The position numbers and the translations under genes are program-made. Positions 17,423-48,335 of a DNA stretch of 64,000 nucleotides are shown here, piece by piece. This DNA is from an uncultured Chloroflexia bacterium (GTDB lineage: Bacteria; Chloroflexota; Limnocylindria; QHBO01). Where the stretch lies: NCBI GenBank assembly GCA_963814375.1, contig CAWFCQ010000005.1, forward strand, positions 1-64,000. The letters are read 5' to 3'. Below the pieces are notes generated by a model. The model was not told the origin of the DNA and did not search any database. It saw only the letters and a program-made list of their open reading frames with translations. Numbering within the stretch: the first letter of the stretch is position 1; each line of letters opens with the position of its first letter.

Positions 17423-17444
17423 GCACGACAACGACGGCTGCAAT

Positions 17445-18060: not shown

Positions 18061-18063
18061 AGG

Positions 18064-18339: not shown

Positions 18340-18358
18340 GGTGCTACATTGTAGCACC
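18340..18358. promoter_or_regulatory. Toxin-antitoxin autoregulatory operator
   Basis: Perfect inverted repeat GGTGCTACA-T-TGTAGCACC abutting the antitoxin start. Confidence 0.75.
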
Positions 18359-18395
18359 TGAGATCGGAAGGACGCTCACCGGCGTGAACGCCCGG

Positions 18396-21128: not shown

Positions 21129-21282
21129 CGCCGTCACTCCTGACCGTCGTCCGTCGCGCCTCGCATTGCAGAGCAAGCGTACGGTGGTCGTCGGCCCGAA
21201 CGCCACCCCCACGGACGGCATGGCGGGCCGCTCCCCTGGCCCGGATCACCGGTTCGCCGTCCGCGTCTGGTACGCTGCAGCG

Positions 21283-22072: not shown

Positions 22073-22128
22073 CGCCGCAGCGCCACGTTGACCCCGACAC
22101 CGCGACGGGCTACGTTTACCGGGCCTAG

Positions 22129-25482: not shown

Positions 25483-25752
25483 AGCAGTTTCCCTCCGCTT
25501 CTTACACGTCACGCGACGTTGACCGGCTGACGGTCATGTCTCGCTGCGCGCCGGCGCGGCGGTCATAGCGCCCCTGGGCCTTTTGTCTCTTTCGCCGGAA
25601 GTGTGCGCAACGCGACGATTGTCAGCGTGACGGAGGGTGAACCACCAGAGTCGGTACACACCTTGCTCGGCGGCGAGGGCACCACGACCTCGGCGGCATC
25701 CGCCGGGGGCGGAGGTGTCAAGCGCGCGCTCCATCGGTACGGAGGGAGTCGC

Positions 25753-26778
25753 ATGAAGCGCTCCGTCATCATCGTCGTCGCCTCCCTGGTCACCACGCTC
25801 GGGATCTGGTGGGCGCCGCAGCTTCTCACTGCGCTCCGCGACCGCTCGAATGCCGCGCGCCCAGCGGTCGCGTACCTCGGCAGCGCCGCCAAGCTCGAGG
25901 CCGGCTATCGACAGTGGAAGAGCAGCCACGAAGCCAGCGGCGGCGACCGCAACGTGAGCCTCGCGCTCCGCTGGTCCCGCGGCCTGTCGACGGAGTACTC
26001 GAAGGCGACCGGGCAGGCACACCTCGATCTGATCGAGGGCCGCGTTCGCGTCGAGGTCCAGGGGCTGGAGGGCCCGGGCTGGGAGGTCTGGCTCGTCGAC
26101 AATGAGCCCGGGCTCGGACGCAGCGTGGCGCCCGAGCCCGGCGACCGCCTCATCCGGGTCGGAACGCTGCAGCGGCAGGGCGAGGCGGCGCGGCTCGACT
26201 CTCGGCTCGGCGTACGCGCGCTGGACGCGTTCGAGCTCGATCTCGTCGTCGTCGCACGGCCCGGTAACGAGCTCGGCGAGCGCGGCGTGCTGTTCGGGGC
26301 GCCCGGGCTCTATCAGCGCCTCTACACGCGCGCGCGAACCGGATACCCGGCGGTCGCGCAGGCGGCCCTGCCGCGCCTCTTCGCCTGGATGAACCCGGTT
26401 GCCCACGCGGCGGCCACGGTGGCGTCGCTCGATCCGCTCGTGGTGAAGGGCGCCGATCTCTTCTTCAACGAGACGTTCAGGGGCAACGGCCGGACCTGCG
26501 GCACCTGTCATCCGGCGGAGAACAACTTCACCATCGATCCCAAGTTCATCGCCACGCTGCCCCCGACCGATCCGCTCTTCGTCGCCGAGTTCGTGCCGGC
26601 GCTGAAGCGGCACTTCGAGAATCCCAGGCTCATGCGCCAGTTCGGGCTGATCCAGGAGAACCTCGACGGCTTCGACGACCTCGCCAACAAGTTCGTCATG
26701 CGCAGCGTGCCCCACATCTTCGCGCTCAACATGACGATGGCGCCGGCCAAGGAAGGCACCGAGAGGCAGCCGGTGCAT
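25753..26778 (+). CDS. Exported c-type cytochrome (peroxidase/MauG-like region), 3' truncated at junction
   Basis: N-terminal hydrophobic anchor; GADLFFNETFRGNGRTCGTCH (CxxCH); ORF runs into unrelated sequence. Confidence 0.7.
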
Positions 26779-26779
26779 A

Positions 26780-27656
26780 TCGTGCGCTAATGCTGCTCCA
26801 TGTCGACGGAGGTCGGATCGATGAAGCCCGCAGCTTCACCGAGCTGGCTATCAAGCAGGCCACGCTGAGTGGTGATGGTCACCTCTTGGCGCAGGTGAGA
26901 GCTGGCCAGGCAGGGCAGTGGGCCTACGGCCCCTTGGAGGCCGATCGCGCCATCGCGGCGATCGAGCCGCTGGCCGAGGAAGCCCGCAGCGGGCTAGCCC
27001 AATCGAGGGCCCTGTACCAGCTCGTCGAGCTGTACGCACTGACGGGGCAGTTCGATGCGGCTCGTGCAGCTGCTGCGCGGTCTCGGTCGATCGCACTCGA
27101 CATGGGTATGCCCCTGGAGGCCGCTGCTACCTCCGTGGCCGCCGGACCCATGGAGCGCTTGGCCGGCAACGCGGAGGCCGCCGAGGCGGAGCTGCGTGCC
27201 GACTACGAGACGCTTCGGCGCTCCGGCGATCGGTACTGGGCACCTACCGTCGCCGCATTCCTCGCCCACGTGCTCTGTGATCGCGGGGCCACCGACGAAG
27301 CAATGGCGTTAAGTGTGGAAGCTCAGCGCACCGCGGTTGAGGATGACTATCTGTCGCAGGTGCTGTGGCGCAGCGCGAGAGCTCGTGCTCTTGTCGCGAC
27401 GGATCCAGACGCAGCATTGACCCTCGCCGAGGATGCGGTGGATCGTGCTGCCAGCACGGATGCACTTGTCGATCACGGCAACGCTCTCCTGGACCTTGGC
27501 GAGGTTCTCCAGGGAGTTGGGCGCCGCAACGACGCCCTGGACGCCACCGACAAGGCGATCGTGCTGTTCCAGGCAAAGGGTGCGACGGCTTACGTGGGTC
27601 TCGCCGAGAAGCGGCGTCACCAGCTCATTGATGAACCCGGCCACTCTGGGGCCTGA
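26780..27656 (+). CDS. C-terminal TPR-like region of a large AAA-ATPase/adenylate cyclase-type protein, 5' truncated
   Basis: Ala-rich helical repeats ending AIVLFQAKGA, typical of cyclase-AAA-TPR proteins; no convincing start. Confidence 0.65.
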
Positions 27657-27825
27657 CGGGCACCAGCGCTGGGCACGACCTGGGGGTCAAACAGCGCGGC
27701 CGCTTCGCTTACACCGCGTCCTTATCGATGATCGGCCAGCAACGCTATCGCTCACGGAGGCGATCCGGTTTTCACTGCACTCGTGCGCCCGCAACGACAG
27801 GAACAACCGTAAGCTGCGCTCTGCA

Positions 27826-27957
27826 AAGACAGCAGATAACTCGATGCTCAACGCTCCCCCATCCACGCTCGGGCTACAGCGCTAGCGCCCAGATAGTCCG
27901 AAGTCAGCTGCTCTGATCCACTGAGCTACGGGCGCCGATTCACGCTCAAACAGAGCG
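27826..27957 (-). repeat. Composite repeat copy 1: ~70-bp arm + 5' half tRNA-Arg(UCG) (27897-27935) + CGCTC-N5-GAGCG
   Basis: Minus strand GCGCCCGTAGCTCAGTGGATCAGAGCAGCTGACTTCGGA = acceptor 5' strand, D arm, anticodon 5' strand and loop; identical in copies 2 and 4. Confidence 0.93.
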
Positions 27958-28014
27958 TATGACTCGGCCGCCATTGTCCCACAGCGTGAGCAGTCGACGG
28001 CATATTGGGACACA

Positions 28015-29232
28015 TCAGGGGCTTATGACGCCGCGCTGAATCACCCTACTGGGTTCGATGTCTGCACTGAACACCACGATCTCGTCGTCCATGGCTGCGG
28101 CCGTCACGAACCTGCCGTCTAACGACCCGGCGTCGGTCCATGTGATCCCGTCTCGGGTTGTCCATGTGCTCCGGTCGCCGAACGCAACGAGACCGCCCGG
28201 CACCACCACGAGGTCGGCGTTGCCTATTCCCGCGGCACCCAACGGCTCCTGGGCGGCCGTCCATGTCAGACCGTCCGGCGAGGTGAAGGCCAGCGTGGTG
28301 CCGTCGGAGGCCGGCCCTGGGTATTCAGTCCCGAGCGCCGCAAAGCCGCCGGCCGGTAGCGGAGCAACGGCCACGAAGATGAGACCGCGCTCGGCGTCAC
28401 CGGGCGCCGACTCCTCCCATGCCCTCCCGTCGCTCGACACCCACGACGTGGCGGTCGGCGGCTCACGAAACTCGGGATCGCCGCGGAAGCCGACCGCGAC
28501 GAAGCGGTCACCCGACCAGACAACGTCGTGAGGTTCGATACGTGACAGCGAGTCACTGGAAGCGCCCGGCGTCGTCTCGACCCAGCTCGTTGACTCCGTC
28601 CATGTCCACAGCCGCCCGGCGGGCGTTGCGAACTGAGTCTCGACGGCCACAAGTGTCTGATCCCCCGTCGCAACCTCGCGCACCAAGTATCCGGACCGGT
28701 ACAGTGGGCTGGCCGACTCGATCCACTCCCAGCTCGCGCCGTCGGGCGATCGCCAGCCGTATACGCCGCGACCGTCGCAACAGCCGATGAATGTGCCGAA
28801 CGAGAGAAGGCTATCGCCGAGCCGCGTCATCGGTCCGAGAACGGGGCCGGTAAAGGTCTCCTCGGGCTGCTGGTTCTCGACATCGGACCGCACCCAGGTC
28901 TTTGCGTCGGTCGCGGTCCACGCCGCGGGGCCATCGCCTTCTACCACCCCGCCCGCGATCCACGTGTCCCCGTCTGCGTAGACATTGGTCACCGAGCCGT
29001 CGAACGGTTCGGACGGCTCCCAGGCAATCGTGAGCGGACCAGCAGGGTCGGATGGCTCGGGAGGCGCCTTCGAAGCGTCCGGGGAGGGAAATGGCACAAT
29101 GGAGTCGGCACTTGCCGCGGTCGATGGCGGTGCCACGGAGGGCGGCCGGACGGAGGTCGAGACATCCGCGCTGCAGGCAGCCATTGCGATTGTCATGGCC
29201 GCAAGCGGCGTAAGGGCTCGGGCATTGGTCAT
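28015..29232 (-). CDS. Secreted lipoprotein with BNR/beta-propeller-like repeats
   Basis: Lipobox MAAC, Pro/Ser linker, repeated W-x-S-x-D-G-x-x-W motifs. Confidence 0.8.
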   Translation of the reverse strand: MTNARALTPLAAMTIAMAACSADVSTSVRPPSVAPPSTAASADSIVPFPSPDASKAPPEPSDPAGPLTIAWEPSEPFDGSVTNVYADGDTWIAGGVVEGDGPAAWTATDAKTWVRSDVENQQPEETFTGPVLGPMTRLGDSLLSFGTFIGCCDGRGVYGWRSPDGASWEWIESASPLYRSGYLVREVATGDQTLVAVETQFATPAGRLWTWTESTSWVETTPGASSDSLSRIEPHDVVWSGDRFVAVGFRGDPEFREPPTATSWVSSDGRAWEESAPGDAERGLIFVAVAPLPAGGFAALGTEYPGPASDGTTLAFTSPDGLTWTAAQEPLGAAGIGNADLVVVPGGLVAFGDRSTWTTRDGITWTDAGSLDGRFVTAAAMDDEIVVFSADIEPSRVIQRGVISP

Positions 29233-29299
29233 GCCACGCACTTTGGAGCCTCACCCCTACGGTAGGACTACGGGGAAACGATCGGTTGAGCGCGAAACG

Positions 29300-29434
29300 A
29301 AGACAGCAGACAACTCGACCGATTACGCTCCCCCACCCACGCTTGCGCTACAGCGCATCGGCCGGGCTAGTCCGAAGTCAGCTGCTCTGATCCACTGAGC
29401 TACGGGCGCCCGCGCCTGCCGCTCAAGCGGAGCG
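29300..29434 (-). repeat. Composite repeat copy 2: arm + 5' half tRNA-Arg(UCG) (29371-29409) + palindrome
   Basis: Same 39-nt tRNA half; arm AAGACAGCAGACAACTCG..TACGCTC..CACGCT..ACAGCGC; CGCTC-AAGCG-GAGCG at 29420-29434. Confidence 0.93.
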
Positions 29435-29567
29435 GAGTGGTGGAGATCGTACCCTGCCAGCGAGTGTCTCTGCGAGAGAATCGCCTCGCCGCAGTCGGGC
29501 CGCAGAGCCTGCGGTATAGGCTGGGCTAGTGACTTGGCGAGAGACTGCCCACCAGCGCGCCGGAGCA

Positions 29568-30857
29568 ATGGTTGGCGCGGCGTTTGTGTTGGCGGTCAGC
29601 GCATGCACTGCCGCGTCTCCCCAGGCAACTGCATTCCCCTCTTCCGCGCCGAAGAATCCAACGCCGACCAGTTTTGCCGTTTCGGGCACTCCAACGCCGA
29701 CCGCGTCTCCGGCGCCAACCGCGTCTCCGGCGCCGAGCCCAACCAGCCCGCCCATAACCTCGAGCAGCGCCTCGTTCAACCTCCTGCCCGTCCAGCAGCC
29801 GACGGACTTTGTATCGACAATCACCTGCAGTGGTTCGATCGGCGCGTCGGACCCGGTCGCGATCGTCCAGTTGCAGGCGGCGGTCGAAGGTACCGGCAAC
29901 ATCGTTCTGCGTGACTACGCTGACCCCGCCAGCCCAAGTACCGCGTGTACGTTCGGCCAAATCCGGCCCGTGCAGCTCATCGATGCCCGCCACGTGGTGA
30001 TCGGCGGCTTTTCCGGAGCGGTTGAAAGCGCGCACACGTACGCCGTAGTCGACCTCCCGGAGGTGCGCTTCCACTGGTTCCAGCTGCCCTTCGAGCCAGA
30101 GCCGGGAGGAGGGGGTCCCAGCCTCATCGCCGTCTCACCGGGGCTCGATCAGGTCCTCTGGCTTACGACGCACGCCGTATCTGAGACGGAGGCCACAGAC
30201 AACGTACACATCACTACGAGTGCCGGAGATCGCGTCGTCGCATCTGTGCCACGCCCGAACGGCGGCCGTTGCGGCTCACCGGACGACTCGAAGCAGGGCG
30301 CCTACACGCACTCGGGAGCCCACCTCTTCGTGCTCGACCAGCCGATCCCACAGCGCAACAGCCTCTTCGTATTCGAGGGGGAATCACAGGTGCTGTCGGT
30401 CCTTCCACCGGATGGTGGGTGGCCCCAAGGCGCGCACCCCGCAATGGCGGTCTGGTCGCCAAGCTCGGAAACGCTCTACTACCGCCAGGGCAACGACATC
30501 TGGAGGTGGACGGCCGGCTCGAACCCAGAGCGGTACCTCCCGGGCGTCAGCTGGTACAACCCGACGATCACGCCCGACGGAACTCGCTTGGCCTATTCAG
30601 TGGGGCGTTCGGATGGCCTGCACGATGTCTATCTCGTCGACCTGGCTCATGATGGCCGCCCTCAGCTGGTCGGGGAGGGCCGCAACCTGCCCGTGTTCCT
30701 GAATTCGACGCAGCTCTGGTACATGTCTGAAGGCCAGGGCATCTGTGGCCCCGGCGTTGATGAGCCCCTCATCTACAGCCTCAGTGACTCATCCGAGTCG
30801 CCCAGCGTTATCTACCGAGTCCACGGAGTCTGGCCAGCTACGAGCTCCAACAACTGA
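29568..30857 (+). CDS. Secreted lipoprotein with TolB/WD40-like C-terminal repeats
   Basis: Lipobox VSAC, PT/ASP linker, WSPSSETLYY and ITPDGTRLAY motifs. Confidence 0.78.
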   Translation: MVGAAFVLAVSACTAASPQATAFPSSAPKNPTPTSFAVSGTPTPTASPAPTASPAPSPTSPPITSSSASFNLLPVQQPTDFVSTITCSGSIGASDPVAIVQLQAAVEGTGNIVLRDYADPASPSTACTFGQIRPVQLIDARHVVIGGFSGAVESAHTYAVVDLPEVRFHWFQLPFEPEPGGGGPSLIAVSPGLDQVLWLTTHAVSETEATDNVHITTSAGDRVVASVPRPNGGRCGSPDDSKQGAYTHSGAHLFVLDQPIPQRNSLFVFEGESQVLSVLPPDGGWPQGAHPAMAVWSPSSETLYYRQGNDIWRWTAGSNPERYLPGVSWYNPTITPDGTRLAYSVGRSDGLHDVYLVDLAHDGRPQLVGEGRNLPVFLNSTQLWYMSEGQGICGPGVDEPLIYSLSDSSESPSVIYRVHGVWPATSSNN

Positions 30858-30912
30858 TCTGAGCCCTGAGTGCCTCGATCGGCGTGCCTGCGGGAAACAA
30901 GCGAATGGGCTT

Positions 30913-31048
30913 CCGACAGCGGATAACTCGGCGCTCTTACGCTCACCATCCCTCGCTCGGGATACAGCGCATCGGCAGGGATTAAGAGGCGAACTGACTC
31001 AGGCGGACAGCGCCTGATCAACAGCCCCGACCACAGCGGTACGGCCGC
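30913..31048 (-). repeat. Composite repeat copy 3 (degenerate): arm clear, tRNA half absent or eroded
   Basis: GACAGCGGATAACTCG..TTACGCTC..TCGCTCGGGATACAGCGCATCGGC aligns with other arms; possible tRNA traces at 31008-31025 and 31040-31048. Confidence 0.78.
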
Positions 31049-31350
31049 TAACACCACGCGGTCCTTTCACAGGCGACGTTGGTCCGCTATACCGTGATCG
31101 CCCTCGGCGCGATGTCGCCGGCCGCGTGAGCCGAACATCCAAGGAGGATGGCATGTCGGATCATCCTAGGTCTGGCCATCGTGTGGTTAGGTGCGTGGAT
31201 GATGCGGACGACCGCGGCCGGCACCGCGGCTGGCGAGCAAGCCGGTGCACGATGAAGGCGGGATCGTCTCGCTGCTGACACCGCGTGCGTATGCTCGGCT
31301 GCGTTCGTTCGCACGCTCAATCTGAAGAGATAGAGCTAGAAGGGGAGGTC

Positions 31351-32181
31351 ATGTCGAAGACGCGGCGCTCCGATACGTCACTCCTCCGGCGCGTCACTGG
31401 TAGGTGGCCGGTCGCCACCTTCTCGGCGATCGTTCTCGGGTTGGCGGGCCTGGTCATGCTCGCCGGTCTCGATGCGGAAACGACTCCGTTCGCTTTGGTA
31501 TTGGTCATTCCGCTCAGCGCCATCCTCACCGCCGCGCTCGTCGGCGGACGCTCGATGGTCCGCGGCCTCTTCGCGCGCATTGTCAGATGGCGGGTACCGG
31601 CGCGCTGGTATCTCGCAGCCATCGGCATTCCGCTAGCGGCCGCGCTGATGATCGACTTGGCCGGCCTCGTCGCCGGCGAGGCAGATCTCGAGACCCTCGT
31701 AGGGGCACTCACACTCAACGCACTGCTGGTGCCGCTCGTCGTCTTCTTGCCGGCCCTGTTCGAGGAGTTCGCCTGGCGCGGCTTCGCGGTCGAGGTGATG
31801 GTCGAACGGGGCTCTGGATTCGCGAAAGCCGCCCTCGGCGTGGGCCTTGTGTTCACTGCCATCCACCTTCCGCTCTACCTCCCTGGGCAGCTCTTCGATC
31901 ATCTTCCGATTTGGCCGGGCGTCCTCTTCCTGCTTGGGGCGGGGGTGCTGCTGACCTGGATCTACCTCGGCAGCGGCCGCAGCTCGCTGCTCGCTGGAAT
32001 ATGCCATGCGGCGCTGAACGGGACCGTCCCGCTCCGTTGGGGTCTGGACGAGGTCTGGGAGTGGCAGGTGAGGGGCATCGTCATCGGGCTGATCGGAGTT
32101 GTCATTCTCGTGCTCGTCAGGAACGGGCCGGTTGGCCCGGCCGGACCGGCCAACTCGTACGACTCAGCATCTGCTGAGTGA
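31351..32181 (+). CDS. CPBP (CAAX/Abi) intramembrane metalloprotease
   Basis: EEFAWRG, FTAIH, HAALN motifs; GGGGAGG RBS. Confidence 0.9.
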   Translation: MSKTRRSDTSLLRRVTGRWPVATFSAIVLGLAGLVMLAGLDAETTPFALVLVIPLSAILTAALVGGRSMVRGLFARIVRWRVPARWYLAAIGIPLAAALMIDLAGLVAGEADLETLVGALTLNALLVPLVVFLPALFEEFAWRGFAVEVMVERGSGFAKAALGVGLVFTAIHLPLYLPGQLFDHLPIWPGVLFLLGAGVLLTWIYLGSGRSSLLAGICHAALNGTVPLRWGLDEVWEWQVRGIVIGLIGVVILVLVRNGPVGPAGPANSYDSASAE

Positions 32182-32207
32182 TCAACTCTCTCGGACGGGA
32201 GGATCAG

Positions 32208-32972
32208 ATGGGATCCGTGCTTCGCCGATGGCCACTCGCCAGCTATTTCATCCTTGCCTTCGCGTTCGCGTGGATCCTGATCCCGTTGGTCGCGAACGTC
32301 TCGGTGGCGTTTGCTCTCATCGCTCTCTTCGCGCCGGCGCTGGCGGCCATCGTTGTGACCGCTGCCCTCGATGGCTGGAGCGCGGCGCGTCGGCTGATGC
32401 GTGATGCTTTCCGGCCGCGCGGATCGCTGATCTGGTACGTGGTGGCGATCCTGCTCCCGTTCGTCCTGGCCGGCATCACGAACCTGGTGAGCCGGACGAT
32501 GGGCGCCACGCCTCCGCCGTTCGACGCCTCGGTGCTGCCCATCTCGATAGTGCTGGCCATGCTGGCCATCGGTGAGGAGCTCGGCTGGCGGGGGTTCGCC
32601 CTGCCGCGGCTCCAGGCAATTACCCATCCGCTCGTGGCCGCCATCGCGCTGGGGGTGATCTGGGCCGCGTGGCACCTCCCGAACGCCATGATCCCCGGCC
32701 TGGAGTATTACGTCACCGCCTTCCCCGTCTTCGCGGCGTATGTGGTGGCCATAACGGTGCTGTTCAGCTGGCTCTACAACAGCGCTCGGAACTCGATCCT
32801 CGTGGCGTGGGTCTTCCACGGCGCGATTAACACCGCTCTCGCCGTATTCGCCCTGGAGGACATCGTCGACCAGTTCACGCTCAATGCCCTCGTGTTCGGC
32901 GCCGCCGCCGCCGTTGTGGTGATCGCAACCCGCGGTTCGCTCGGACGGACCGGGAGCAGCGGAGTGACTTGA
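32208..32972 (+). CDS. CPBP (CAAX/Abi) intramembrane metalloprotease, paralog of upstream gene
   Basis: GEELGWRGFALPRL, WAAWHLP, HGAIN; GGGAGG RBS. Confidence 0.92.
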   Translation: MGSVLRRWPLASYFILAFAFAWILIPLVANVSVAFALIALFAPALAAIVVTAALDGWSAARRLMRDAFRPRGSLIWYVVAILLPFVLAGITNLVSRTMGATPPPFDASVLPISIVLAMLAIGEELGWRGFALPRLQAITHPLVAAIALGVIWAAWHLPNAMIPGLEYYVTAFPVFAAYVVAITVLFSWLYNSARNSILVAWVFHGAINTALAVFALEDIVDQFTLNALVFGAAAAVVVIATRGSLGRTGSSGVT

Positions 32973-33156
32973 GAGCCCGAGGCGCGGCGCACGCCAGCCC
33001 GCCGCGATTTCTAGGTAATCGCGCGAAAGGCAAACTCCGACACTGAAGCAGCCGCGAGCCCGGCCATACCCGCCTCGTGAGCTGGTAGGGAGGATCGGTG
33101 CTTGGGATAGCGGCGGCTTCCGTATGCTGCGCTGGGTCCGCCCGGTCTGCGTCCAC

Positions 33157-33287
33157 AAGAGAGCAGATAACTCGACCGTCTACGCTCCCCTCCACGCTCG
33201 GTGCCACAGCGCATCTGCCGAGATAGTCCGAAGTCAGCTGCTCTGATCCACTGAGCTACGGGCGCACGTTCACGCTCGGAGAGAGCG
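33157..33287 (-). repeat. Composite repeat copy 4: arm + 5' half tRNA-Arg(UCG) (33227-33265) + palindrome
   Basis: Same 39-nt tRNA half; CGCTC-GGAGA-GAGCG at 33273-33287. Confidence 0.93.
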
Positions 33288-33326
33288 GAAAAATCGATTC
33301 CGCATCAGCTACAGCTAGCGGAACCG

Positions 33327-34418
33327 TCAGTCGGTTGGGCCTTCCGGTGATCCCATAAGGTCCAGCGCGGTCACGGTCTCTTTGGCCATCTCCCTCACGA
33401 GCTCTGCGGCTGGCAGCCGGCGGGACAGGCGCACTCCTTGGCCCGCCCACAGGGACAGGTAGTCGGCACGATCCTGGGTTGCCGCGGCGGCCCGTGCCGG
33501 ACGAGTCAGCGCGTTCTGGAGCGGGAAGGGAAGGATCGCCTCGGCATCGGCGTCGATGCCGGCCATCAGATCGTTGACGATCCCGCGCGCAGGGCGTCCA
33601 GAAAACGCACGCGTGACCCTCGTCTGATCCTCGCGGGCGTCGACGATCGCTTGCTTGTATGACGCGGGGATCCCGGCCTCGTCGCAGGTGAGAAAGGCGG
33701 TGCCAAGCTGGGCGGCCTCGGCTCCGAGAGCCAATGCCGCTGCGATCCCTCTGCCGTCCATGATGCCGCCTGAGGCGATCACCGGGACGCTGACGGCGTC
33801 GACCACCTGAGGAATGAGTGCCATCGTCCCGATCATGGCGGCCTCGAAGCTCAGACCGAACGTACCGCGATGGGCACCGGCCTCGCTGCCTTGCGCCACG
33901 ATGGCGTCGACGCCGGCCGCCTCCAGGGCGCTCGCTTCGTCGACCGTCGTGGCCGTGCCGATGACGAAGAGGCCGCGCGCCTTGACCTCCTCGACCGCAC
34001 CCGGCGGGAGCAACCCGAAGGTGAAGCTGAAGACCGACGCTTCGGTCTCCAGGACCGCCTGGAGTTGATCAGCGAAGGCGAGATCGCTGGGTGCGGAAAG
34101 TGACGGCGGCGCGATGCCGAGCTCGGCATGGACGCCCTTCAGGACCTCGACCATACGCCCCGCGTCTCCGGATGAGTCGGGCATCGGCTGCGGCGCGAAG
34201 AGGTTGAGGCCGAACGGGCGATCGGTGCGCGTTCTGACTGCGGCCGCGGTCTCACGGATCGCGTCGGGGGATGAATAGGCGCAACCGAGAAAGCCCAGCG
34301 CTCCGGCGCGGCATACGGCCGTGACGAGGTCGACCGTAGTCGCGCCGCCCGCCATCGGAGCCTGAATAATGGGATGCTCGATGCCGAGACGTCGCACCAG
34401 CGCGGATTCACGCAGCAT
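33327..34418 (-). CDS. Nitronate monooxygenase family flavoprotein
   Basis: PIIQAPMAGG, QGSEAGAHRG, ASGGIMDGRG, TRAFSGRPARG, SLWAGQ. Confidence 0.93.
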   Translation of the reverse strand: MLRESALVRRLGIEHPIIQAPMAGGATTVDLVTAVCRAGALGFLGCAYSSPDAIRETAAAVRTRTDRPFGLNLFAPQPMPDSSGDAGRMVEVLKGVHAELGIAPPSLSAPSDLAFADQLQAVLETEASVFSFTFGLLPPGAVEEVKARGLFVIGTATTVDEASALEAAGVDAIVAQGSEAGAHRGTFGLSFEAAMIGTMALIPQVVDAVSVPVIASGGIMDGRGIAAALALGAEAAQLGTAFLTCDEAGIPASYKQAIVDAREDQTRVTRAFSGRPARGIVNDLMAGIDADAEAILPFPLQNALTRPARAAAATQDRADYLSLWAGQGVRLSRRLPAAELVREMAKETVTALDLMGSPEGPTD

Positions 34419-34599
34419 GACCGCTCCCCTTGTTGTTGCAGAAAGGCGTCGCCTACGCCCCTGTCAAGTTTCTCCCAGGCGACAAGGGAGCCGCCGCTAG
34501 TCCATTCGTGCCAGGAGGGCTTCGCAGCGGCTCCGGGCGACCGGCACAGGTGATGCGGTAGACGCCGGGTCGTCTGCAAACCCGAAAGGGAGTGCTCCT

Positions 34600-35151
34600 A
34601 TGCGCCGCATCGTCGTCGCTCTACCATTGGCAGCCCTGCTCGTCATGCTGACTGCGACCGCGGTCCTCGCCCAGAACGCGAGTGTGACCATCACCAATCT
34701 GATCTGTCCCACGGGCTACAGCGGAACCAACCACGCTGCCGATTGCATGGGCGTCGCTGATCCGCCGCTTCCGTTCGAGATCACCGGCCCGGCAAGCGCG
34801 GATGGACAGACGGACGCCACAGGGACTGTCGTGTTCGAGGGCCTGCCAGCGGGCACGTATACGGTCACCGGTGGCGCCCCAGGCGACTTCGCCGCGGCAG
34901 TCATCGAGTGCGAAGGACAGGAGTCCATATCCCAGGACGGGGTCATCCTGACCCTGGAGATCGCCGCGGACGCGGCCGTGGCGTGCAGCTGGTGGAATGT
35001 CCCCGAGGACACGTCCGGCATGCCGCCCACCACGGCGATGGCGGTGGACCCGCCAGCTGGCTCTGCGCTCCTGGGCATGCTGATGGTGCTGCTGTCCATC
35101 TCGATGCTCGCCCGAGCTGCGCGCTCTCGCCGGTCCGTCGCCCGGTCCTGA
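34600..35151 (+). CDS. Secreted Ig-like protein with C-terminal membrane anchor (MPPTT, LPxTG-like)
   Basis: Signal peptide, TDATGTVVFEGLPAGTYTVT prealbumin-like motif, TM helix + basic tail. Confidence 0.7.
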   Translation: MRRIVVALPLAALLVMLTATAVLAQNASVTITNLICPTGYSGTNHAADCMGVADPPLPFEITGPASADGQTDATGTVVFEGLPAGTYTVTGGAPGDFAAAVIECEGQESISQDGVILTLEIAADAAVACSWWNVPEDTSGMPPTTAMAVDPPAGSALLGMLMVLLSISMLARAARSRRSVARS

Positions 35152-35456
35152 GACATCGCTCGGCTCCACGGCTACTTGCTTCCCTTCCGGCGGCCCCGTT
35201 CGCAGTTGGCGACGTGCGCTAGGTCCGGTTTTACCCGACCCTTGCCGTAGAGTTGCGAACGAGCCGCCGGTTCAACTGGGTTCCCCCCGCAGTCTGTCCG
35301 GCGGCTCATTCCCCCCTGCCGGTGTCTCTTTGCACCGGTCCTGCCATCGGCATGCCGGTTGCATGACGCACTTGCGCGTCGCGATCCGTTCGCGACTGCG
35401 CGCGCCGAGCGCTGAGGGTGTCGCGGGAGAGTTGGCGGCCCTCGTAGGATCCCCGC

Positions 35457-36677
35457 ATGGGCCTCACCCGGCGTGCCGTGCAGCGGCTGGTCTCCATTGG
35501 CGATGAGCCCTCGGACGATGACGATCTGCGGCTGCGCAAGCGGGTCGGGGTCCTGGCGGGAATCGCAACGATCTTCGCGCCGCTGACGTTGCCGATCCAG
35601 ACCCAGGGTCAGCCCGTCAGCTACGTGCTCGGGATCGGGCTGGCCCTCTTCAGCGTCGTCAATCTCGGGGTGCTGGCGGCGACGCACCGATTCGACAGGT
35701 ACCTCATCGGCCTGATCGCCGCTGGCACGGTGTTCGTGCCAGCAGCCCACCTGGTCGGGGGCGGCATCACCGGGACCAGCCCGGGGCTGGTGTGGGCGTT
35801 CCTCGTGCCCGCCTACGCGATCATGGCCCTGGGCCCCCGTCGAGCCCTTCCCTGGTTCGCAGCATTTCTGGTCAGCGTGTTGTTCATGGTTGTGCTCGAC
35901 CCATGGGCACGCGACACCTTCGGCGAAGGCCCGTACCCCTTCCGAGTGCTCGGCTGGACAACGAATGTCGTCCTTCCGCTCACGATCGTGTTCGTACTGT
36001 TGCGGTTCACCGATCTCCGTCGCCGGGCGGCGGAGGCCCGTGCGGACGAGCTCCTCGTGAATGCGATCCCGGCCTCAATCGCGGCTCGGCTCAAGCACGG
36101 CGAGGAGCGGATAGCTGAGCATTATCCGGAGACGACCGTCCTGTTCGCCGACGTCGCCGGCTTCACGCCATGGGCGAATCGAACGGATGCTGTTCGGGTT
36201 GTCGGCCTGCTCGAGGACCTCTTCACGCGCTTCGACGGCGTGGCGTTCGAGACCGGGATTGAGAAGCTCAAGACGATGGGCGATGCGTACATGGCGGTCG
36301 CCGGAGCCCCGCAAAAGGTTGAGGACCATGCCGCTGCCGCCCTCCGAGCGGCGCGAGGCATGCTGGCGGCGGCCGCGACCTGGCGGGAAGTGCACCGGGA
36401 GGAGCTGGAATTGCGCATCGGCATCGCCAGCGGGCCAGTGGTTGGTGGCGTCATCGGGGGCCAGCGGATCCTGTTCGATCTTTGGGGCGACACGGTCAAC
36501 ACGGCGGCCCGGATGCAGACGAGCGGCATCCCGGGCCGCATCCAAGTCGCGGCGTCGACGATGCAGCTGACAGCAGGGCCGTTCCAGTTCGAGGAGCGCG
36601 TGGTTGACGTGAAGGGCCTCGGGCGGCTCAGCGTCTATCTCCTCGAGGATCACGTCCGCGGGAAGGGCGAGAGGTAG
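35457..36677 (+). CDS. Membrane-bound class III adenylate/guanylate cyclase
   Basis: About six TM helices; VLFADVAGFT, KLKTMGDAYM, RIGIASG, FDLWGDTVNTAARM. Confidence 0.94.
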   Translation: MGLTRRAVQRLVSIGDEPSDDDDLRLRKRVGVLAGIATIFAPLTLPIQTQGQPVSYVLGIGLALFSVVNLGVLAATHRFDRYLIGLIAAGTVFVPAAHLVGGGITGTSPGLVWAFLVPAYAIMALGPRRALPWFAAFLVSVLFMVVLDPWARDTFGEGPYPFRVLGWTTNVVLPLTIVFVLLRFTDLRRRAAEARADELLVNAIPASIAARLKHGEERIAEHYPETTVLFADVAGFTPWANRTDAVRVVGLLEDLFTRFDGVAFETGIEKLKTMGDAYMAVAGAPQKVEDHAAAALRAARGMLAAAATWREVHREELELRIGIASGPVVGGVIGGQRILFDLWGDTVNTAARMQTSGIPGRIQVAASTMQLTAGPFQFEERVVDVKGLGRLSVYLLEDHVRGKGER

Positions 36678-36808
36678 AGCGAAACGACGTCGCGGTAGGC
36701 CGTGTACTCAGGGCCTAATCGATGGCTCTGAAGGTATCTCAAGGCCCGCTTGAGCTGTGCCACAGCGTTGGGACCGGTCTGAGTCCGCAGACTGCGATCG
36801 GGTTCCGG

Positions 36809-37345
36809 CTAGCGGGGGTCGACATTCTCCTCCCCCACCGGAGCCTGGAAGGTGAAGCGCGTCGCCGATGTGTTGAACCGCCGCACGTCGAAGGCGATCA
36901 GCTTCGTCGGGCGCGCCCGGAAAATTGGTCCATTCACGTATTGCGCCACGGGTGGCCGATAGTCGAAGTCCGCCCCGTACTTCGCCGCGTATTGGCGCGC
37001 GATCCTGGCAGCGACGTCGCGCTCGAGACCTCCGGCGACGTCCACCACCGCCTGGCCGTACGCGGCCCGATCGCCGACCTGCACTCCGAAGGCGAGCCGC
37101 GGGTCACGCGCGAGGTTGCGTGCCCACCGGGTCCGGTCGCTTCCCTCGAAGTAGAGAGTGTCGTCGACCCAGGCGCACCACTGCTCGACGAGATGAGGCG
37201 CTCCATCCGCGCCGGTGGTCGAGATCCAGAGGTATCGCGCGGTGCGCAACATGCGCTGCACGGCGGCCCAGGTCAGCATCCCCTTCGGTGCACGGGTGAT
37301 GTACCCCGGCGGAAGTTGTGGCCGATCGCGTTTCGGGGTGGTCAT
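36809..37345 (-). CDS. Pyridoxamine 5'-phosphate oxidase (PPOX)-like protein
   Basis: YLWISTTGADGAPH, RWARNLARDPR. Confidence 0.82.
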   Translation of the reverse strand: MTTPKRDRPQLPPGYITRAPKGMLTWAAVQRMLRTARYLWISTTGADGAPHLVEQWCAWVDDTLYFEGSDRTRWARNLARDPRLAFGVQVGDRAAYGQAVVDVAGGLERDVAARIARQYAAKYGADFDYRPPVAQYVNGPIFRARPTKLIAFDVRRFNTSATRFTFQAPVGEENVDPR

Positions 37346-37402
37346 GCCTGACATCGTATCGGCCAAGGCCTGTCCAGGACGATCGCTGCCGGCCGCGTCC
37401 CG

Positions 37403-38515
37403 TCATGACGCGCGTGTCATCGCCAGGACATGCTCGCCGATCGCCAAGGACGCGGTGAGGCCCGGCGACTCGATGCCGAAGAGATGAATCAGGCCCGGGA
37501 TGCGGTGCCTCTCGGGACCGTGGAAGGTGAAGTCCTGCGCCGGCGCACCTGGCGGCACGATCTTCGGCCGGATGCCGGCAAAGTCGGGGTGCAGTGCGCC
37601 GTCCTTCAGGCCCGGCCAGTATCGGCGCACCGCAGCGTAGAATCCGTCGCCGCGCGAGGGGTCGACGGCGTAGTCGATCTCGTCGATCCATTCGACGTCG
37701 GGGCCGAACCGCGCCTGGCCACCCAGATCGACCGTGATGTGGACCCCCAGTCCGCCAGGCACCGGCACCGGGTAGATCAGCCTCGAGAAGGGCGATGGAC
37801 CGCTCAAGCGGAAGTAGTTGCCCTTGGCGTAGTAGGCGGTCGGGAGCGTGTCGTACATCGCGCCGTCAATCCGACGTGCCAAATCGGGCGCGCGCAGCCC
37901 TGCGCTGTTCACCAGCAGGCGCGCGCGCAAAGTGATCGGAGGCCCGCCGCCGACGTCGATCTCGAGGCCCCCGTCGGCGACGCGACCGCGCTCCATCGGG
38001 CTGTGAAAGGCGATGATCGTGCCGGCGGCCTCGGCGTCGCTGCGCAGCGCTGCCATGAGGCGGTGGCTGTCGACGATGCCGGTGGCCGGCGAGAGCAACG
38101 CGCCCGTGCAACTGAGCTCCGGCTCGATCGCCGTCGCTTCGGCAGCGTCGAGGAGGCGCATGCCCTCGACGCCATTGGCCTCGGCGCGTGCTTTGATCGA
38201 GACGAGGGTCTCGGTCTCGGGCACCGTCGTGGCGACGATCAGCTTGCCGCACCTGTTGTAGGGCACGCCGCGGTCGTCGCAGTACCGATACAGCATGCGC
38301 CGACCTTGAACGCAGAGCCGCGCCATGTTGCTGCCCTTGGGATAGTAGATGCCGGCGTGCACTATTTCGCTGTTGCGGGATGACGTCTCGGTGCCGATGG
38401 TCTCGTGGGCTTCAAGTACGATCACCTCCCGCCCGGCCATCGCCAGCGCACGCGCCACCGCCAGGCCGACGACTCCAGCACCGACCACGACGGAGTCAAC
38501 CGTCTCGTACGCCAC
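37403..38515 (-). CDS. FAD-dependent oxidoreductase, L-2-hydroxyglutarate oxidase-like
   Basis: [41 protein letters not shown]. Confidence 0.92.
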
Positions 38516-38626
38516 GGCGCGCACTGTAGCGGCAATGCCGACGTCTGAGCGGTTCGAGCGGTTGGCTCGCCAACGCCTGGGCTCGGCCGGCTTGTGCTCC
38601 CATCCTGGACGTGTCACGTTTCGCGG

Positions 38627-39679
38627 ATGCTCTCTGCCGATGCTCTGACCGCTCTCGACACCCAGCTTGAGCGATGGAGCCGAGAACGGGATTACTCCGG
38701 CACGGTCCTCTTGACGCGGGCGGGCTCCACCATCTTCGAGCGCTGCTATGGGCTGGCCGATCGGGCTGCGGGTATCCCGATCACAGCGGAGACTCGGTTC
38801 GGGTTGGCGTCGGTGACGAAGCTGTTCACAGCCGTTGCGATCGCCGATTGCGTTTCGGCCGGGCTGCTGCGATTCGATGATGCGGTGGCGGACCTGCTGC
38901 CGGCCGGACGCCGCCCGACGACCCTGCGCTCCGACGTGACGGTGCATCACCTCCTCACGCATACGTCGGGAATCGCCGACTACTGCGAGGAGGACGAGGA
39001 CTCGCCGGGCTACGTCGAGGACTACGGCGCGCTCTGGGACGACCTGCCGAACTACAGCATGCTGCGGCCGGTCGACTTCCTGCCGCTCTTCGGGGATCGT
39101 CCGCCCTACCGACCTCCCGGCCAGAAGTGGCAGTACTCGAACGCCGGGTATGTCGTGCTCGGCCTCGTCATCGAGGAGGTGTCGGGGCAGCCGTACACGG
39201 ACTTCGTCCAGAAGCGCGTCTTCGACCGTGCGGGGATGACGTCATCCGGGTTCTTCCGCCTGGACGAGGCTCGTCCGAGCGTCGCGATCGGCTATCTGCC
39301 GCGACCATCGCCGGACGCGCCCTGCAGATCGAACATCTACCGGACGCCGGTGATCGGCGGCGCCGATGGCGGCGCATTCAGCACGAGCCGTGATCTCGAC
39401 CTCTTCCTTCATCGGATCGCCGATGGAACGCTGCTGGGACCGCTGCAGGACGTCGTTCTCGCACGGCACGCTGACGCCGGCGAGGGCTTCCATAGCGGCT
39501 ACGGCTTCCTCCACCATCCGGACGGCCGGTACGGCCACGAAGGTGGCGACCCCGGCGTCGAGGCATTCGCCGAGCGCTTCCCGGACGACGAGGTCAACCT
39601 GGTCGTCCTCTGCAATATGGAGGGGCTCTCCGACGATGTGCGAGATGCCCTCGTGGAAGCGTGGCGAGGGACCGCCTAA
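38627..39679 (+). CDS. Serine hydrolase, beta-lactamase class C-like
   Basis: SVTK (SxxK), LLTHTSG, YSN, GHEGG. Confidence 0.92.
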
Positions 39680-39775
39680 GCGAGCGGGATACGGGGAGAG
39701 CAGCTGACCTCGGAGCTGGCACACCGATTGCTTCGCGGGCGGCGGCGGTGACAACCAGTGGAGGGGGTTGACAGC

Positions 39776-47640: not shown

Positions 47641-47689
47641 GACCCGATGATCGCAGGGGTGCGCAAGATGGCAGTACGGGCGCCGTCGC

Positions 47690-48214
47690 TCATTCTGCGG
47701 ATCGGTCTGAGTCGGCGATCGGCGAACCGCTTGTTCCATTCCACGGCGTGAGCCGCGGCCACCACGCGGGCACGGCGCGGCAGTAGTCATCGTATGAGGC
47801 GCCATAGGTTCTGCGCAGAGTGGGTTGCTCGTACGCCGCCACGAACGACACGACAGCGACGGAGAACAGCGCAAACCAGACGAGCACCCAGATACTGGCG
47901 AAGGCGACCGCCTGGCCGAGGATCATCGCGCCTACCGCCAGGTACATCGGGTTCCGCACCCAGCGGTAGAGCCCGCCGACGACCAGCTCGTCCGTGGGCG
48001 CGATTGGCGCCGGCGTCCCACGGCCCTCACGGACGAACTGCACGAAGCACGCGACCAGCGCCGCAAGCCCGAGCGCGACGACGACCAGTCCGAGTACTGC
48101 GACCGGCGATTCGACCAGGCCGGTGTACCGCGTGATTGACCAGGGCACCACGCCGGCCACCACCCCGGGCGCGACGATGAAGAAGAGCACGCTTCCCCAT
48201 GCCGCTCGCGTCAC
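47690..48214 (-). CDS. Isoprenylcysteine carboxyl methyltransferase/PEMT-like membrane protein
   Basis: GRGTPAP, LVVGGLYRWVRNPMY, EQPTL..YG..Y..Y...VPAW. Confidence 0.88.
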   Translation of the reverse strand: MTRAAWGSVLFFIVAPGVVAGVVPWSITRYTGLVESPVAVLGLVVVALGLAALVACFVQFVREGRGTPAPIAPTDELVVGGLYRWVRNPMYLAVGAMILGQAVAFASIWVLVWFALFSVAVVSFVAAYEQPTLRRTYGASYDDYCRAVPAWWPRLTPWNGTSGSPIADSDRSAE

Positions 48215-48264
48215 GCCGAGAATACTAGGCTCGACAGACGATGGCGCCCAGCGACGGGCCCAGT

Positions 48265-48335
48265 GAGCCGAAGCGTCCAGCTTCTCGGCGATCCGCTCCG
48301 GGCGCGCGGACTTCGGAATCACTGAGCGCCCGCGG
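48265..48335 (-). pseudogene. Short aldo-keto reductase remnant
   Basis: GRSVIPKSARPERIAEKLD matches AKR IPKS motif, no surrounding gene. Confidence 0.5.

What the first reader, a model, noticed from the sequence alone, without database searches (positions are those of the whole stretch)
27826..33287. Integrase-free gene-cassette array delimited by repeated 5' halves of tRNA-Arg(UCG): candidate tRNA-anchored integron-like system
Seen: three identical 39-nt segments (27897-27935, 29371-29409, 33227-33265; 42 nt with the adjacent TAG). On the minus strand they read GCGCCCG-TA-GCTC-AGTGGATCA-GAGC-A-GCTGA-CTTCGGA, a tRNA 5' half that stops exactly at the end of the anticodon loop. The expected TCAGC 3' stem, T arm and CCA never follow. 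Each is fused to the same ~70-bp non-tRNA arm, and a fourth arm lies at 30913. The arms cut the region into units of about 1.5, 1.6 and 2.2 kb, each holding 1-2 unrelated genes in either orientation and no integrase, transposase or phage gene. Known: tyrosine integrases often cross over in tRNA anticodon loops, but usually duplicate the 3' part and sit on large self-encoding islands. Inference: small non-autonomous cassettes are serially inserted at tRNA-Arg by a recombinase acting in trans, each leaving a 5'-half scar. The intact tRNA, and perhaps the integrase, would lie left of the junction at about 26,780.
Basis: partly seen in the sequence, partly recalled or inferred. Interest (0 to 1): 0.92.

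Follow-up and report, generated by a model that had tools for sequence, protein, structure and literature searches.

The report
Gene cassettes stacked at tRNA-Arg
A soil-type Chloroflexota genome carries a row of small foreign gene packets, each left behind when a mobile element spliced itself into the front half of an arginine tRNA gene: a rare mirror-image form of a well-known way in which bacteria collect genes.

Summary
There are three identical 39-nt 5' halves of tRNA-Arg(UCG), each fused to a ~72-nt arm, plus a fourth arm. They occur nowhere else in this 2.5-Mb MAG. Same-genus relatives carry the same kind of array, with up to 15 half+arm units over 82 kb. In the contigs that reach the end, the array always finishes with an intact tRNA-Arg(UCG) on the downstream side. 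Cargo differs almost completely between genomes.

The recombinase is not a mystery. A Xer-like tyrosine integrase family sits divergently about 90-120 nt from the 5' end of tRNA genes in related genomes. One metagenome contig has a full-length copy next to an intact tRNA-Arg(UCG). That copy has a 39/39 identical half and the same upstream arm motifs as the window's cassettes. Short integrase remnants lie in three relatives' arrays.

The locus is therefore an accretion array of integrase-less elements that integrate "backwards", replacing the promoter and 5' half. It is analogous to Dehalococcoides ssrA islands, CIMEs and tycheposons, and it is not an integron. The intact tRNA and an integrase are absent from this assembly. 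The bin contains two ~93%-identical strains and shows a suspicious junction at 26,790. This is a new variant of a known kind, of moderate interest.

The parts
33266..33315 (-). Upstream arm ('P arm') of unit 1. It holds a promoter-like box, a CGA..TCCGCTCT repeat and a small hairpin just 5' of the tRNA half.
   Evidence: Aligns with the upstream region of units in relatives. It is most like the integrase-proximal arm of L157 and L016.
33227..33265 (-). tRNA-Arg(UCG) 5' half, copy 1 (positions 1-39, ending at the last base of the anticodon loop).
   Evidence: A sub-threshold Rfam tRNA hit of 22.4 bits lies at 33193-33265.
33157..33226 (-). Arm 1, the distal att arm of the next element.
   Evidence: nhmmer E 2e-17; alignment.
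31285..32972 (+). Cargo of cassette 1: two adjacent Rce1-like/CPBP membrane protease genes (31285-32181 and 32178-32972).
   Evidence: Pfam PF02517, E 1.7e-12 and 6.5e-15.
30915..30982 (-). Arm only; the tRNA half and upstream arm are missing.
   Evidence: nhmmer E 7.8e-15; sequence.
29529..30857 (+). Cargo of cassette 2: a 442-aa protein with a weak PD40 beta-propeller repeat.
   Evidence: Pfam PF07676, E 0.005, below the cut-off.
29410..29436 (-). Short upstream arm of unit 2 (hairpin part only).
   Evidence: blastn matches to relatives' units extend to 29436.
29371..29409 (-). tRNA-Arg(UCG) 5' half, copy 2.
29299..29370 (-). Arm 2.
   Evidence: nhmmer E 1.5e-18.
28015..29241 (-). Cargo of cassette 3: a 408-aa protein with no Pfam family, on the same strand as the tRNA halves.
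27936..27986 (-). Upstream arm of unit 3, 'type A': a GCTGTGGGACAATG box, a CGAGTCATACGCTCTG repeat and a hairpin.
27897..27935 (-). tRNA-Arg(UCG) 5' half, copy 3.
27824..27896 (-). Arm 3, the last arm. No intact tRNA follows it.
   Evidence: nhmmer E 7.9e-18.
26790..27656 (+). A 288-aa TPR ORF that matches only the C-terminal part of proteins from about 1075-aa open frames in relatives. It is cut at the 26,790 junction, where GC content also changes.
36777..39668 (.). Three adjoining blocks, each 85-95% identical to DNA inside a different relative's array: a PNPOx-like gene, a DAO oxidoreductase and a PF00144 serine hydrolase. These look like older island content without recognisable arms.
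39697..39714 (+). Degenerate remnant of the tRNA half (positions 22-39, 1 mismatch) in the opposite orientation.
47675..48322 (-). A PEMT-family gene (47690-48322), a promoter-like CAGAAT box and the first 9 nt of the tRNA (47683-47675). The same about 580-bp segment lies directly upstream of the intact tRNA in G022 and upstream of halves in G009 and G075.

Best explanation
The region is the proximal part of a genomic island built by repeated site-specific integration into the tRNA-Arg(UCG) gene. The integrating elements belong to a family of small elements with a Xer-like tyrosine integrase, and they use the reverse of the usual geometry. The circular element carries an att site made of three parts. 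The first is an upstream arm of about 55 nt that includes its own tRNA promoter. The second is a copy of tRNA positions 1-39. The third is a distal arm of about 72 nt. Recombination inside the 39-nt identity fuses the resident 5' half to the incoming distal arm, which creates the scar. The element's own promoter and 5' half are joined to the resident 3' half, which keeps the tRNA intact. Each new arrival lands next to the intact tRNA and pushes older elements outward. The members seen in the window have no integrase. They are decayed or non-autonomous members, comparable to CIMEs. Their upstream arms survive because each one drove the essential tRNA while it was the proximal copy. Their halves are near-identical because each was part of the working tRNA until the next insertion. 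Shown: the anatomy, the arrays ending in an intact tRNA in relatives, the variable cargo, and the integrase next to the same att sequences. Inferred: the recombination geometry, the order of arrival, the promoter role, and the exact crossover point somewhere inside positions 1-39.
For: (1) Thirteen of the 20 relatives' loci fetched hold an intact tRNA-Arg(tcg). Wherever half+arm units lie on the same stretch, they are all in one orientation and upstream of it. In G075 there are 15 half+arm units plus 2 arm-only units over about 82 kb, followed by the intact tRNA.

(2) Identity between scars and the intact gene ends at the same base, after CUUCGGA, in all 43 distinct units. The same holds in another family, G038.

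(3) In G038 a 288-aa tyrosine recombinase lies between a displaced 5' half and the intact tRNA, divergent from the tRNA and 118 nt from it.

(4) Homologues in the genus (36-54% identity) each sit next to the 5' end of a tRNA, either Pro, Lys, Arg-TCT, Leu or Arg-CCG.

(5) Of the best 80 of 409 relatives in public genomes, 57 have a divergent tRNA within 600 nt and 16 have a co-oriented one. Of 80 metagenome loci, 39 are divergent and 17 co-oriented.

(6) The four closest relatives of the G023 integrase fragment (75-77% identity) are informative. Three lie 90-92 nt from an intact tRNA-Arg(tcg). L157 has a 39/39 identical half and the same upstream-arm motifs as the window. In L159 the integrase sits next to a half+arm, so it is an integrase-bearing member inside an array.

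(7) The same short repeats, CGAGTTATCYGCT-like and GCGCTGTRGC-like, occur in both the upstream arm and the distal arm. This is what is expected of recombinase or accessory binding sites.

(8) Integrase N- or C-terminal remnants lie just upstream of halves in G044 (2 remnants), G012 and G021.

(9) Cargo is diverse: 108 ORFs from 5 arrays hit 97 Pfam families. Among 50 cassettes, only one pair is shared over most of its length.

(10) Island blocks are 85-95% identical between species whose core flank is 73-77% identical.
Against: No integrase, no integrase remnant and no intact tRNA-Arg(UCG) is present in this assembly, so the model rests on relatives.

In all 11 array-bearing genomes checked for PF00589, the matches fall at one or two Xer-type loci (split into pieces in G016 and G065), plus one sub-threshold hit in G075, and none lies in an array. 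A helper has therefore not been seen together with a long array.

Only 4 remnants were found in about 50 cassettes. Decay is shown for a few cassettes only, and the origin of the rest is open.

The PEMT segment with its own promoter-like box sits mid-array in G075 and G009. The simple rule 'native flank is most distal' does not predict this.

No excised circle or empty site was observed. The three public runs hold only relatives' contigs.

The promoter scan found no sigma-70-like site in 27700-33400.

The 3' strand of the anticodon stem is not part of the identity block, so the classical anticodon-loop crossover site is incomplete in the element's att site.
Confidence: 0.8

Rival explanations
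1. This is a dedicated integron-like capture platform. Integrase-free cassettes (cargo plus an att site of about 165 bp) circulate as the normal mobile unit and are inserted and excised in trans by a recombinase encoded elsewhere.
For: Cassettes are small, with a median of about 2.8 kb across 50 cassettes. They nearly all keep both arms. They carry diverse accessory cargo. Long arrays lack any integrase. 46 or more of about 50 cassettes show no integrase trace. One cassette is shared at 93% identity between two species at different array positions.
Against: The arms are the att arms of integrase-bearing elements. Integrase stubs occur in 4 cassettes. Retention of the upstream arm is explained by selection for the tRNA promoter. 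Cargo lies in either orientation with no common promoter. No circle or cassette-level polymorphism was observed.
Confidence: 0.14
2. The host XerC/XerD pair catalyses the insertions, as in IMEX elements or dif modules.
For: In the array-bearing genomes checked, the only PF00589 hits above the family cut-off are the Xer-type ones. The element integrases are themselves Xer-like at 30-35% identity.
Against: A dedicated integrase family is physically linked to the same att sequences. No dif-like site was identified in the unit; this was not tested, because I had no verified dif consensus for this lineage.
Confidence: 0.03
3. The repeats are duplications produced by homologous recombination or by mis-assembly of a mixed bin, and not by site-specific insertion.
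For: The bin holds two strains about 90-96% identical. The 26,790 junction looks artificial.
Against: The same architecture recurs in 21 other genus genomes, including assemblies of 3-10 contigs. The arms of the copies differ (79% mean pairwise identity in 20 arms) while the cargo is unrelated. This is not what collapsed or duplicated assembly gives.
Confidence: 0.02
4. Half+arm is a functional RNA gene: a split tRNA, an intron-containing tRNA or a new ncRNA.
For: The assembly lacks tRNA-Arg(UCG), although CGA is used at 9.7 per 1000 codons and the other CGN tRNAs are GCG and CCG. Each unit has a promoter-like box.
Against: No 3' half exists anywhere in the assembly. RNAalifold on 43 units gives 0 of 22 pairs with compensatory change and a covariation term of -0.05. 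Rfam gives only a sub-threshold tRNA hit. Relatives have a normal intact gene beside the same units.
Confidence: 0.01

Closest known systems
Dehalococcoides ssrA genomic islands (PMC3146451; passages seen)
   Same: Same phylum. Tandem islands are stacked at one small-RNA gene and delimited by direct repeats of part of that gene. The conserved att-flanking sequence extends beyond the repeat. About half the islands lack an integration module and were proposed to be cis-mobilizable. No island is duplicated within a strain.
   Different: There the target is the 3' end of ssrA with a 20-bp repeat, and the recombinase is a large serine recombinase. Islands are larger and rich in rdhA genes. Here the 5' half of a tRNA (39 nt) is duplicated, the linked enzyme is a Xer-like tyrosine recombinase, and the element must supply the promoter.
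Tycheposons of Prochlorococcus (bioRxiv 10.1101/2020.12.28.424599; passages seen)
   Same: Tyrosine-recombinase elements specific for particular tRNAs. Islands grow next to the tRNA. Neighbouring elements are separated only by a partial tRNA. Degenerated elements, integrase fragments and partial tRNAs are scattered in the island. Integrases cluster by target tRNA. A replication-type ATPase lies in the autonomous form (L157 has an AAA_25 gene).
   Different: The passages I saw do not say which tRNA half is duplicated, and my word searches in that text for this point found nothing. Relatedness of the integrases was not tested. Prochlorococcus averages 1-2 elements per genome, whereas here up to 17 arm-delimited units lie in a row, all without an integrase.
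CIMEs and site-specific accretion (review PMC5704250; passage seen)
   Same: [quoted passage not shown]
   Different: CIMEs are described for ICE/IME systems at the 3' ends of genes in Firmicutes, usually as one or two units. cis-mobilisation by a neighbour is shown there and is not shown here.
Elements that recombine with the 5'-distal part of a tRNA gene (Zhao and Williams 2002 and archaeal cases, as cited in PMC6563490; that passage was seen, and the 2002 paper itself is not held)
   Same: Reversed target orientation, which displaces the 5' part of the tRNA gene.
   Different: That passage describes them as 'considerably less frequent'. Here a whole integrase family in Chloroflexota shows the reversed arrangement in 57 of the 80 best genome loci, and it builds long arrays.
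Integrons
   Same: An ordered array of small promoter-poor cassettes of diverse accessory genes at one chromosomal site, with the newest cassette next to the anchoring site, made by a tyrosine recombinase.
   Different: There is no intI next to the array, no attI and no hairpin-forming attC. Repeats are direct, 0 inverted repeats were found, and cargo lies in both orientations.

Membership tests
Integron | intI-type integrase gene adjacent to the array | tested here: not met
   PF00589 in G000 finds 2 hits, both on contig C4, best matching XerC/XerD models. tblastn with 5 integrases finds nothing in the window at E<0.09.
Integron | Cassettes bounded by attC sites (imperfect inverted repeats that fold as hairpins) | tested here: not met
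   The boundaries are direct repeats. 0 inverted repeat pairs were found in 25000-36000. There are no covarying pairs in 43 units.
Integron | Cassettes co-oriented behind a common promoter | tested here: not met
   Cargo ORFs lie on both strands.
tRNA-targeting integrative element array (accretion / CIME-like) | Units flanked by direct repeats of part of the target tRNA gene | tested here: met
   3 identical 39-nt halves in the window; 43 distinct half+arm units in the stretches examined.
tRNA-targeting integrative element array (accretion / CIME-like) | An intact copy of the target gene at one end of the array | tested here: inconclusive
   Not present in this assembly. Present in 13 of the 20 relatives' loci fetched and in G075 and G065. 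The bin is 89% complete and mixed.
tRNA-targeting integrative element array (accretion / CIME-like) | A site-specific recombinase linked to the same att sequences in autonomous members | tested here: met
   L157, L016, L158, L160, L159 and L046.
tRNA-targeting integrative element array (accretion / CIME-like) | Excision or integration activity (circles, empty sites) | not testable with these tools
   Only 3 runs were available, with 5-8% of the words, and they are contigs of relatives.
Tycheposon | Integrase belongs to the tycheposon tRNA-associated tyrosine recombinase clades | not tested
   No tycheposon integrase sequence was fetched. Only architecture was compared.
Split or intron-containing tRNA | A matching 3' half (in cis after an intron, or in trans) | tested here: not met
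   blastn-short with the whole tRNA of a relative hits only positions 1-39 at the three sites. ARAGORN finds nothing.

The most novel reading that the evidence does not exclude
In Limnocylindria the tRNA-Arg(UCG) gene serves as the anchor of a true cassette system. Integrase-free units consist of 1-3 cargo genes plus a bipartite att site of about 165 bp that renews the tRNA's promoter and 5' half. These units are the normal currency. Rare helper elements carrying a Xer-like integrase shuffle them in trans between species. This would be a tyrosine-recombinase gene-capture array functionally equivalent to an integron, but built on double-stranded tRNA-half sites and reaching 17 units and 80 kb.
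Probability: 0.2. Interest if true: 0.75.

Novelty: new variant of a known kind. Interest (0 to 1): 0.55.

Why it matters
The finding shows that integration into the 5' part of a tRNA gene is not a curiosity, at least in one lineage. The one review passage I read calls this orientation considerably less frequent than 3' integration. Here it is the majority arrangement among the nearest relatives of one integrase family. That family has at least 409 relatives in public genomes, mostly in uncultured soil and freshwater Chloroflexota.

It also shows that this mode can build very long, orderly arrays of small accessory-gene packets. Each element must bring a working promoter and half of an essential tRNA. 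This gives a built-in reason why att arms persist after the integrase is lost.

For annotation, such arrays mark the flexible genome of a poorly known class. They also explain strings of 'pseudo-tRNA' fragments. If the cassettes prove mobilisable in trans, this would be a second, independent route to integron-like gene capture.

Tried and rejected
Group I intron or split tRNA. I looked by eye for a 3' half after the arm and saw a CGGGCGC near 27,790. No T arm fits, the other copies lack it, and searches find none. Rejected.

Known RNA family. Rfam at gathering threshold finds only tRNA-His in the window. At E<=1 over 27600-33500 it finds only a sub-threshold tRNA hit. Structured RNA is also unsupported: RNAalifold shows no covariation.

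Serine recombinases. PF00239 gave 0 matches in G000 and in 5 array-bearing relatives.

Synteny of the left flank. The protein from 25603-26790 has no match in 5 relatives. DNA from 14000-26789 gives only generic ABC-transporter matches. The gene that follows the tRNA in relatives, an amino-acid-permease-like gene, maps to C8:502-504 kb. No tRNA-Arg(UCG) lies beside it there. I could not decide between a real rearrangement and a chimeric or mixed bin.

Reads. One search found 3 runs holding 5-8% of the sampled words. Laid as contigs, they cover mostly the repeat units at high depth. They include loose ends that continue from the half into a tRNA 3' part, so they come from relatives. This gave no evidence on circles, on this genome's junctions or on habitat.

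Crossover mapping. The T/C polymorphism at tRNA position 16 was used: upstream 'type A' has T in 30 of 36 units and other types in 12 of 22. The association is weak and the units are not independent, so this was not used.

Cassette sharing. Only 6 pairs of 50 cassettes align over 400 nt or more, and only one pair over most of its length.

Zhao and Williams 2002 is not held. Supplementary files were not requested, and the tycheposon supplement may show which tRNA half those elements duplicate. Literature searches for this system returned no listed paper on tRNA-anchored arrays in Limnocylindria, although only the 10-12 top listings of each search were seen. Counts include unpublished genomes (G006, G047, G048). 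Locus L056 (G047) was one of the integrase-tRNA examples.

Full report
OBSERVATION. A 40-nt pattern has 3 matches in the window and none in 100 shuffles. It has no further match in the 2,517,584-base, 8-contig genome. Read on the minus strand, the segment is a tRNA from position 1 to the last base of a CUUCGGA anticodon loop. Each copy is followed by an arm of about 72 nt. A profile of that arm finds four copies in the genome, all here: 33226-33157, 30982-30915, 29370-29299 and 27896-27824, with E 8e-15 or better. The next hit has E 0.89. About 27-55 nt upstream of each half is also shared with the units of relatives. The genes between arms are unrelated. They are two Rce1-like/CPBP proteases, a weak PD40-like protein and a protein with no family, and none is a recombinase.

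WHAT THE HALF BELONGS TO. ARAGORN finds 61 tRNAs in the genome but no tRNA-Arg(tcg). The Arg tRNAs present are gcg (2 copies), cct, ccg and tct. A blastn-short search used a relative's whole tRNA-Arg(tcg) as query. It hit only positions 1-39, at the three sites. In relatives the picture is complete. A search of 41 genomes showed clusters of the unit on single contigs. I fetched 20 stretches, and 13 hold an intact tRNA-Arg(tcg), several with a 39/39 identical 5' part. Wherever units and the intact gene lie together, the units are all in the tRNA's orientation and upstream of it. Examples are G008 with 5 units, G022 with 3, G065 with 3, and G075. G075 has 15 half+arm units and 2 arm-only units over about 82 kb in a 3-contig assembly. 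Arms occur in 22 of 63 genomes of the genus, counting this one and one unpublished genome. In all 43 distinct units, similarity to the intact gene stops at the same base.

THE RECOMBINASE. This genome has two PF00589 matches, both on contig C4. They best match the XerC and XerD models. It has no PF00239 match. Ten further array-bearing genomes show only Xer-type tyrosine recombinase matches above the family cut-off, at one or two loci each, far from the arrays. These loci lie roughly 130-160 kb from the tRNA where both are on one contig. Five of those genomes were also checked for serine recombinases and have none.

The lead came from a genome of another family, G038. There a 288-aa tyrosine recombinase lies between a displaced 5' half and the intact tRNA-Arg(tcg), divergent from the tRNA and 118 nt from it. 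With that protein as query, 62 of 63 genus genomes match, mostly through their Xer genes. A minority carry closer homologues of about 314-330 aa at 36-54% identity. Each homologue I fetched sits beside a tRNA gene: Pro-TGG, Lys-CTT, Arg-TCT, Leu-TAG, Arg-CCG or Lys-TTT. In the seven of these whose integrase position I compared with the tRNA, the tRNA's 5' end faces the start of the integrase gene. One exception, L060, lies downstream of a tRNA-Arg(tcg). A cut N-terminal fragment lies next to tRNA-Arg(tcg) in G023.

The proteins have a SAM-like N-terminal domain and the catalytic domain. They score far below the Xer cut-offs. In public genomes 409 stretches encode relatives. Of the best 80 loci, 57 have a divergent tRNA within 600 nt and 16 have a co-oriented tRNA. 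The other 7 have none, and 6 of those have little upstream sequence. The record titles are mostly Chloroflexota, including Candidatus Limnocylindria and Limnocylindrales, which is therefore the likely class of this window's organism.

In metagenome contigs, the four nearest relatives of the G023 fragment (75-77% identity) settle the link. Three lie 90-92 nt from an intact tRNA-Arg(tcg). L157 has a complete 315-aa gene, a 39/39 identical half and the same upstream-arm motifs as the window's units. In L159 the integrase is followed by upstream arm, half and a distal arm, so it is an integrase-bearing member inside an array. L157 also carries an AAA_25 ATPase gene and a second tyrosine recombinase.

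MECHANISM. The geometry follows from G038 and L159. An element runs from its distal arm, through cargo and the integrase, to its upstream arm and its own copy of the 5' half. Recombination within the 39-nt identity joins the resident half to the incoming distal arm, and the incoming half to the resident 3' part.

The upstream arm contains a box that reads TGGCACAAT in most units and TCTAGAAT in others at the same place. I read this as an extended -10 element. This is inference, because the simple promoter scan found nothing. Short repeats recur in both the upstream arm and the distal arm, as expected for protein-binding arm sites.

The halves vary at 29 of 2262 positions in 58 units, and 16 of those changes are one T/C site. 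The arms average 79% pairwise identity in 20 copies. My explanation is that each half was part of the working tRNA until the next insertion, whereas the arms diverged among element lineages. The crossover point is not resolved. The 3' strand of the anticodon stem is outside the identity block, so the classical anticodon-loop site is incomplete.

ARE THE CASSETTES DECAYED OR NON-AUTONOMOUS? tblastn with five integrases against 301 kb of arrays finds four short remnants. Each lies just upstream of a half, where the gene sits in intact elements: two in G044, one in G012 and one in G021. None is in this window. So at least some cassettes arose by deletion. Most of the roughly 50 cassettes show no trace.

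Fifty cassettes range from 1.3 to 14.8 kb, with a median of about 2.8 kb. Only one pair is shared over most of its length (G022 and G075, 1438 nt at 93%). Cargo is diverse: 108 ORFs hit 97 Pfam families, including ECF sigma factors, hydrolases, cyclases, regulators and oxidoreductases. Whether integrase-free cassettes still move in trans is open. I give that reading about 0.15-0.2.

THIS GENOME'S PECULIARITIES. The island is larger than the finding. GC is about 0.70 up to 27 kb and about 0.66 from 27 to 55 kb. Blocks at 36.8-39.7 kb match DNA inside three relatives' arrays at 85-95%, while the core flank is only 73-77% identical. A degenerate half lies at 39697-39714 on the other strand. At 47675-48322 there is a PEMT gene with a promoter-like box and the first 9 nt of the tRNA. 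That same segment abuts the intact tRNA in G022.

To the left, the 288-aa TPR ORF is only the C-terminal part of proteins from about 1075-aa open frames in relatives, and it starts at the 26,790 junction. The flank beyond it is not the relatives' tRNA flank. That flank maps to C8:502-504 kb. CGA is used at 9.7 per 1000 codons, so a tRNA-Arg(UCG) is probably needed. The bin is 89% complete. It also holds two versions, 90-96% identical, of at least two regions. The missing tRNA and the odd junction are therefore most simply gaps or chimeras of a mixed bin. A real rearrangement is not excluded.

COMPARISON AND VERDICT. Several elements of this picture are already in print. Tandem islands delimited by repeats of a small-RNA gene, half of them without integration genes, are described for Dehalococcoides ssrA (PMC3146451, passages). 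Decay to CIMEs and accretion is described in a review (PMC5704250, passage). tRNA-specific tyrosine-recombinase elements that leave partial tRNAs and degenerate in place are described as tycheposons (bioRxiv 10.1101/2020.12.28.424599, passages). Recombination with the 5'-distal part of tRNA genes is noted as considerably less frequent (PMC6563490, passage).

The locus fails every tested integron criterion. It is a new variant of a known kind. Three features are new: the reversed geometry as the majority arrangement among the nearest relatives of a large Chloroflexota integrase family, the long bipartite att arms that carry the tRNA promoter, and the length and regularity of integrase-free arrays. 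My four literature searches listed no description of this system in Limnocylindria. Only the top listings were seen, and supplements were not.

Noticed in passing
G000 contigs C4:429-452 kb vs C8:534-557 kb, and C2:220-240 kb vs C5:240-259 kb: Two pairs of regions, including whole tRNA clusters in the same order, are 90-96% identical. The bin seems to hold parts of two closely related strains, which makes chimeric joins plausible.
   Followed up: partly
G000 whole genome: The CGY-reading tRNA-Arg has anticodon GCG (two copies) instead of the usual bacterial ACG. Together with CCG, this leaves CGA (9.7 per 1000 codons) dependent on the tRNA-Arg(UCG) that the assembly lacks.
   Followed up: partly
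window 33048-33128: An element of about 80 nt, just past arm 1, is 93% identical to a stretch in G010 (L037 9246-9328) and 84% identical to one in G021 (L039 18118-18192). A similar stretch seems to precede a unit in G016. Two bases inside it (33077, 33084) reach summed contig depths of about 950 in one soil metagenome's contigs. No Rfam match was found. Its nature is unknown.
   Followed up: no
window 26788-26792: The stop codon of a 395-aa ORF with no Pfam family and no homologue in 5 relatives overlaps the start of the truncated TPR ORF (TAATG). GC content shifts at the same place. This is either a rearrangement breakpoint or an assembly chimera.
   Followed up: partly
L157 1480-2625 and 3505-4740: The integrase-bearing element at tRNA-Arg(UCG) also encodes an AAA_25 ATPase and a second tyrosine recombinase of a different type. 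Its far end is beyond the 4.7-kb contig.
   Followed up: no
L046 8560-8680 (G038, downstream of the intact tRNA): Three direct copies of a motif of about 14 nt (TCAGATGCCCGTCG-like) follow the tRNA's 3' end. They resemble the arm repeats of that genome's element and may be traces of elements using the 3' side.
   Followed up: no
L046 7480-8346: The G038 integrase ORF ends before the conserved RYGAS stretch that holds the catalytic tyrosine in its four aligned relatives, so it may be a truncated pseudogene.
   Followed up: no
window 38594-39679: A PF00144 (beta-lactamase family) serine hydrolase lies in the older part of the island. It is 85% identical to a gene beside the G010 array.
   Followed up: no
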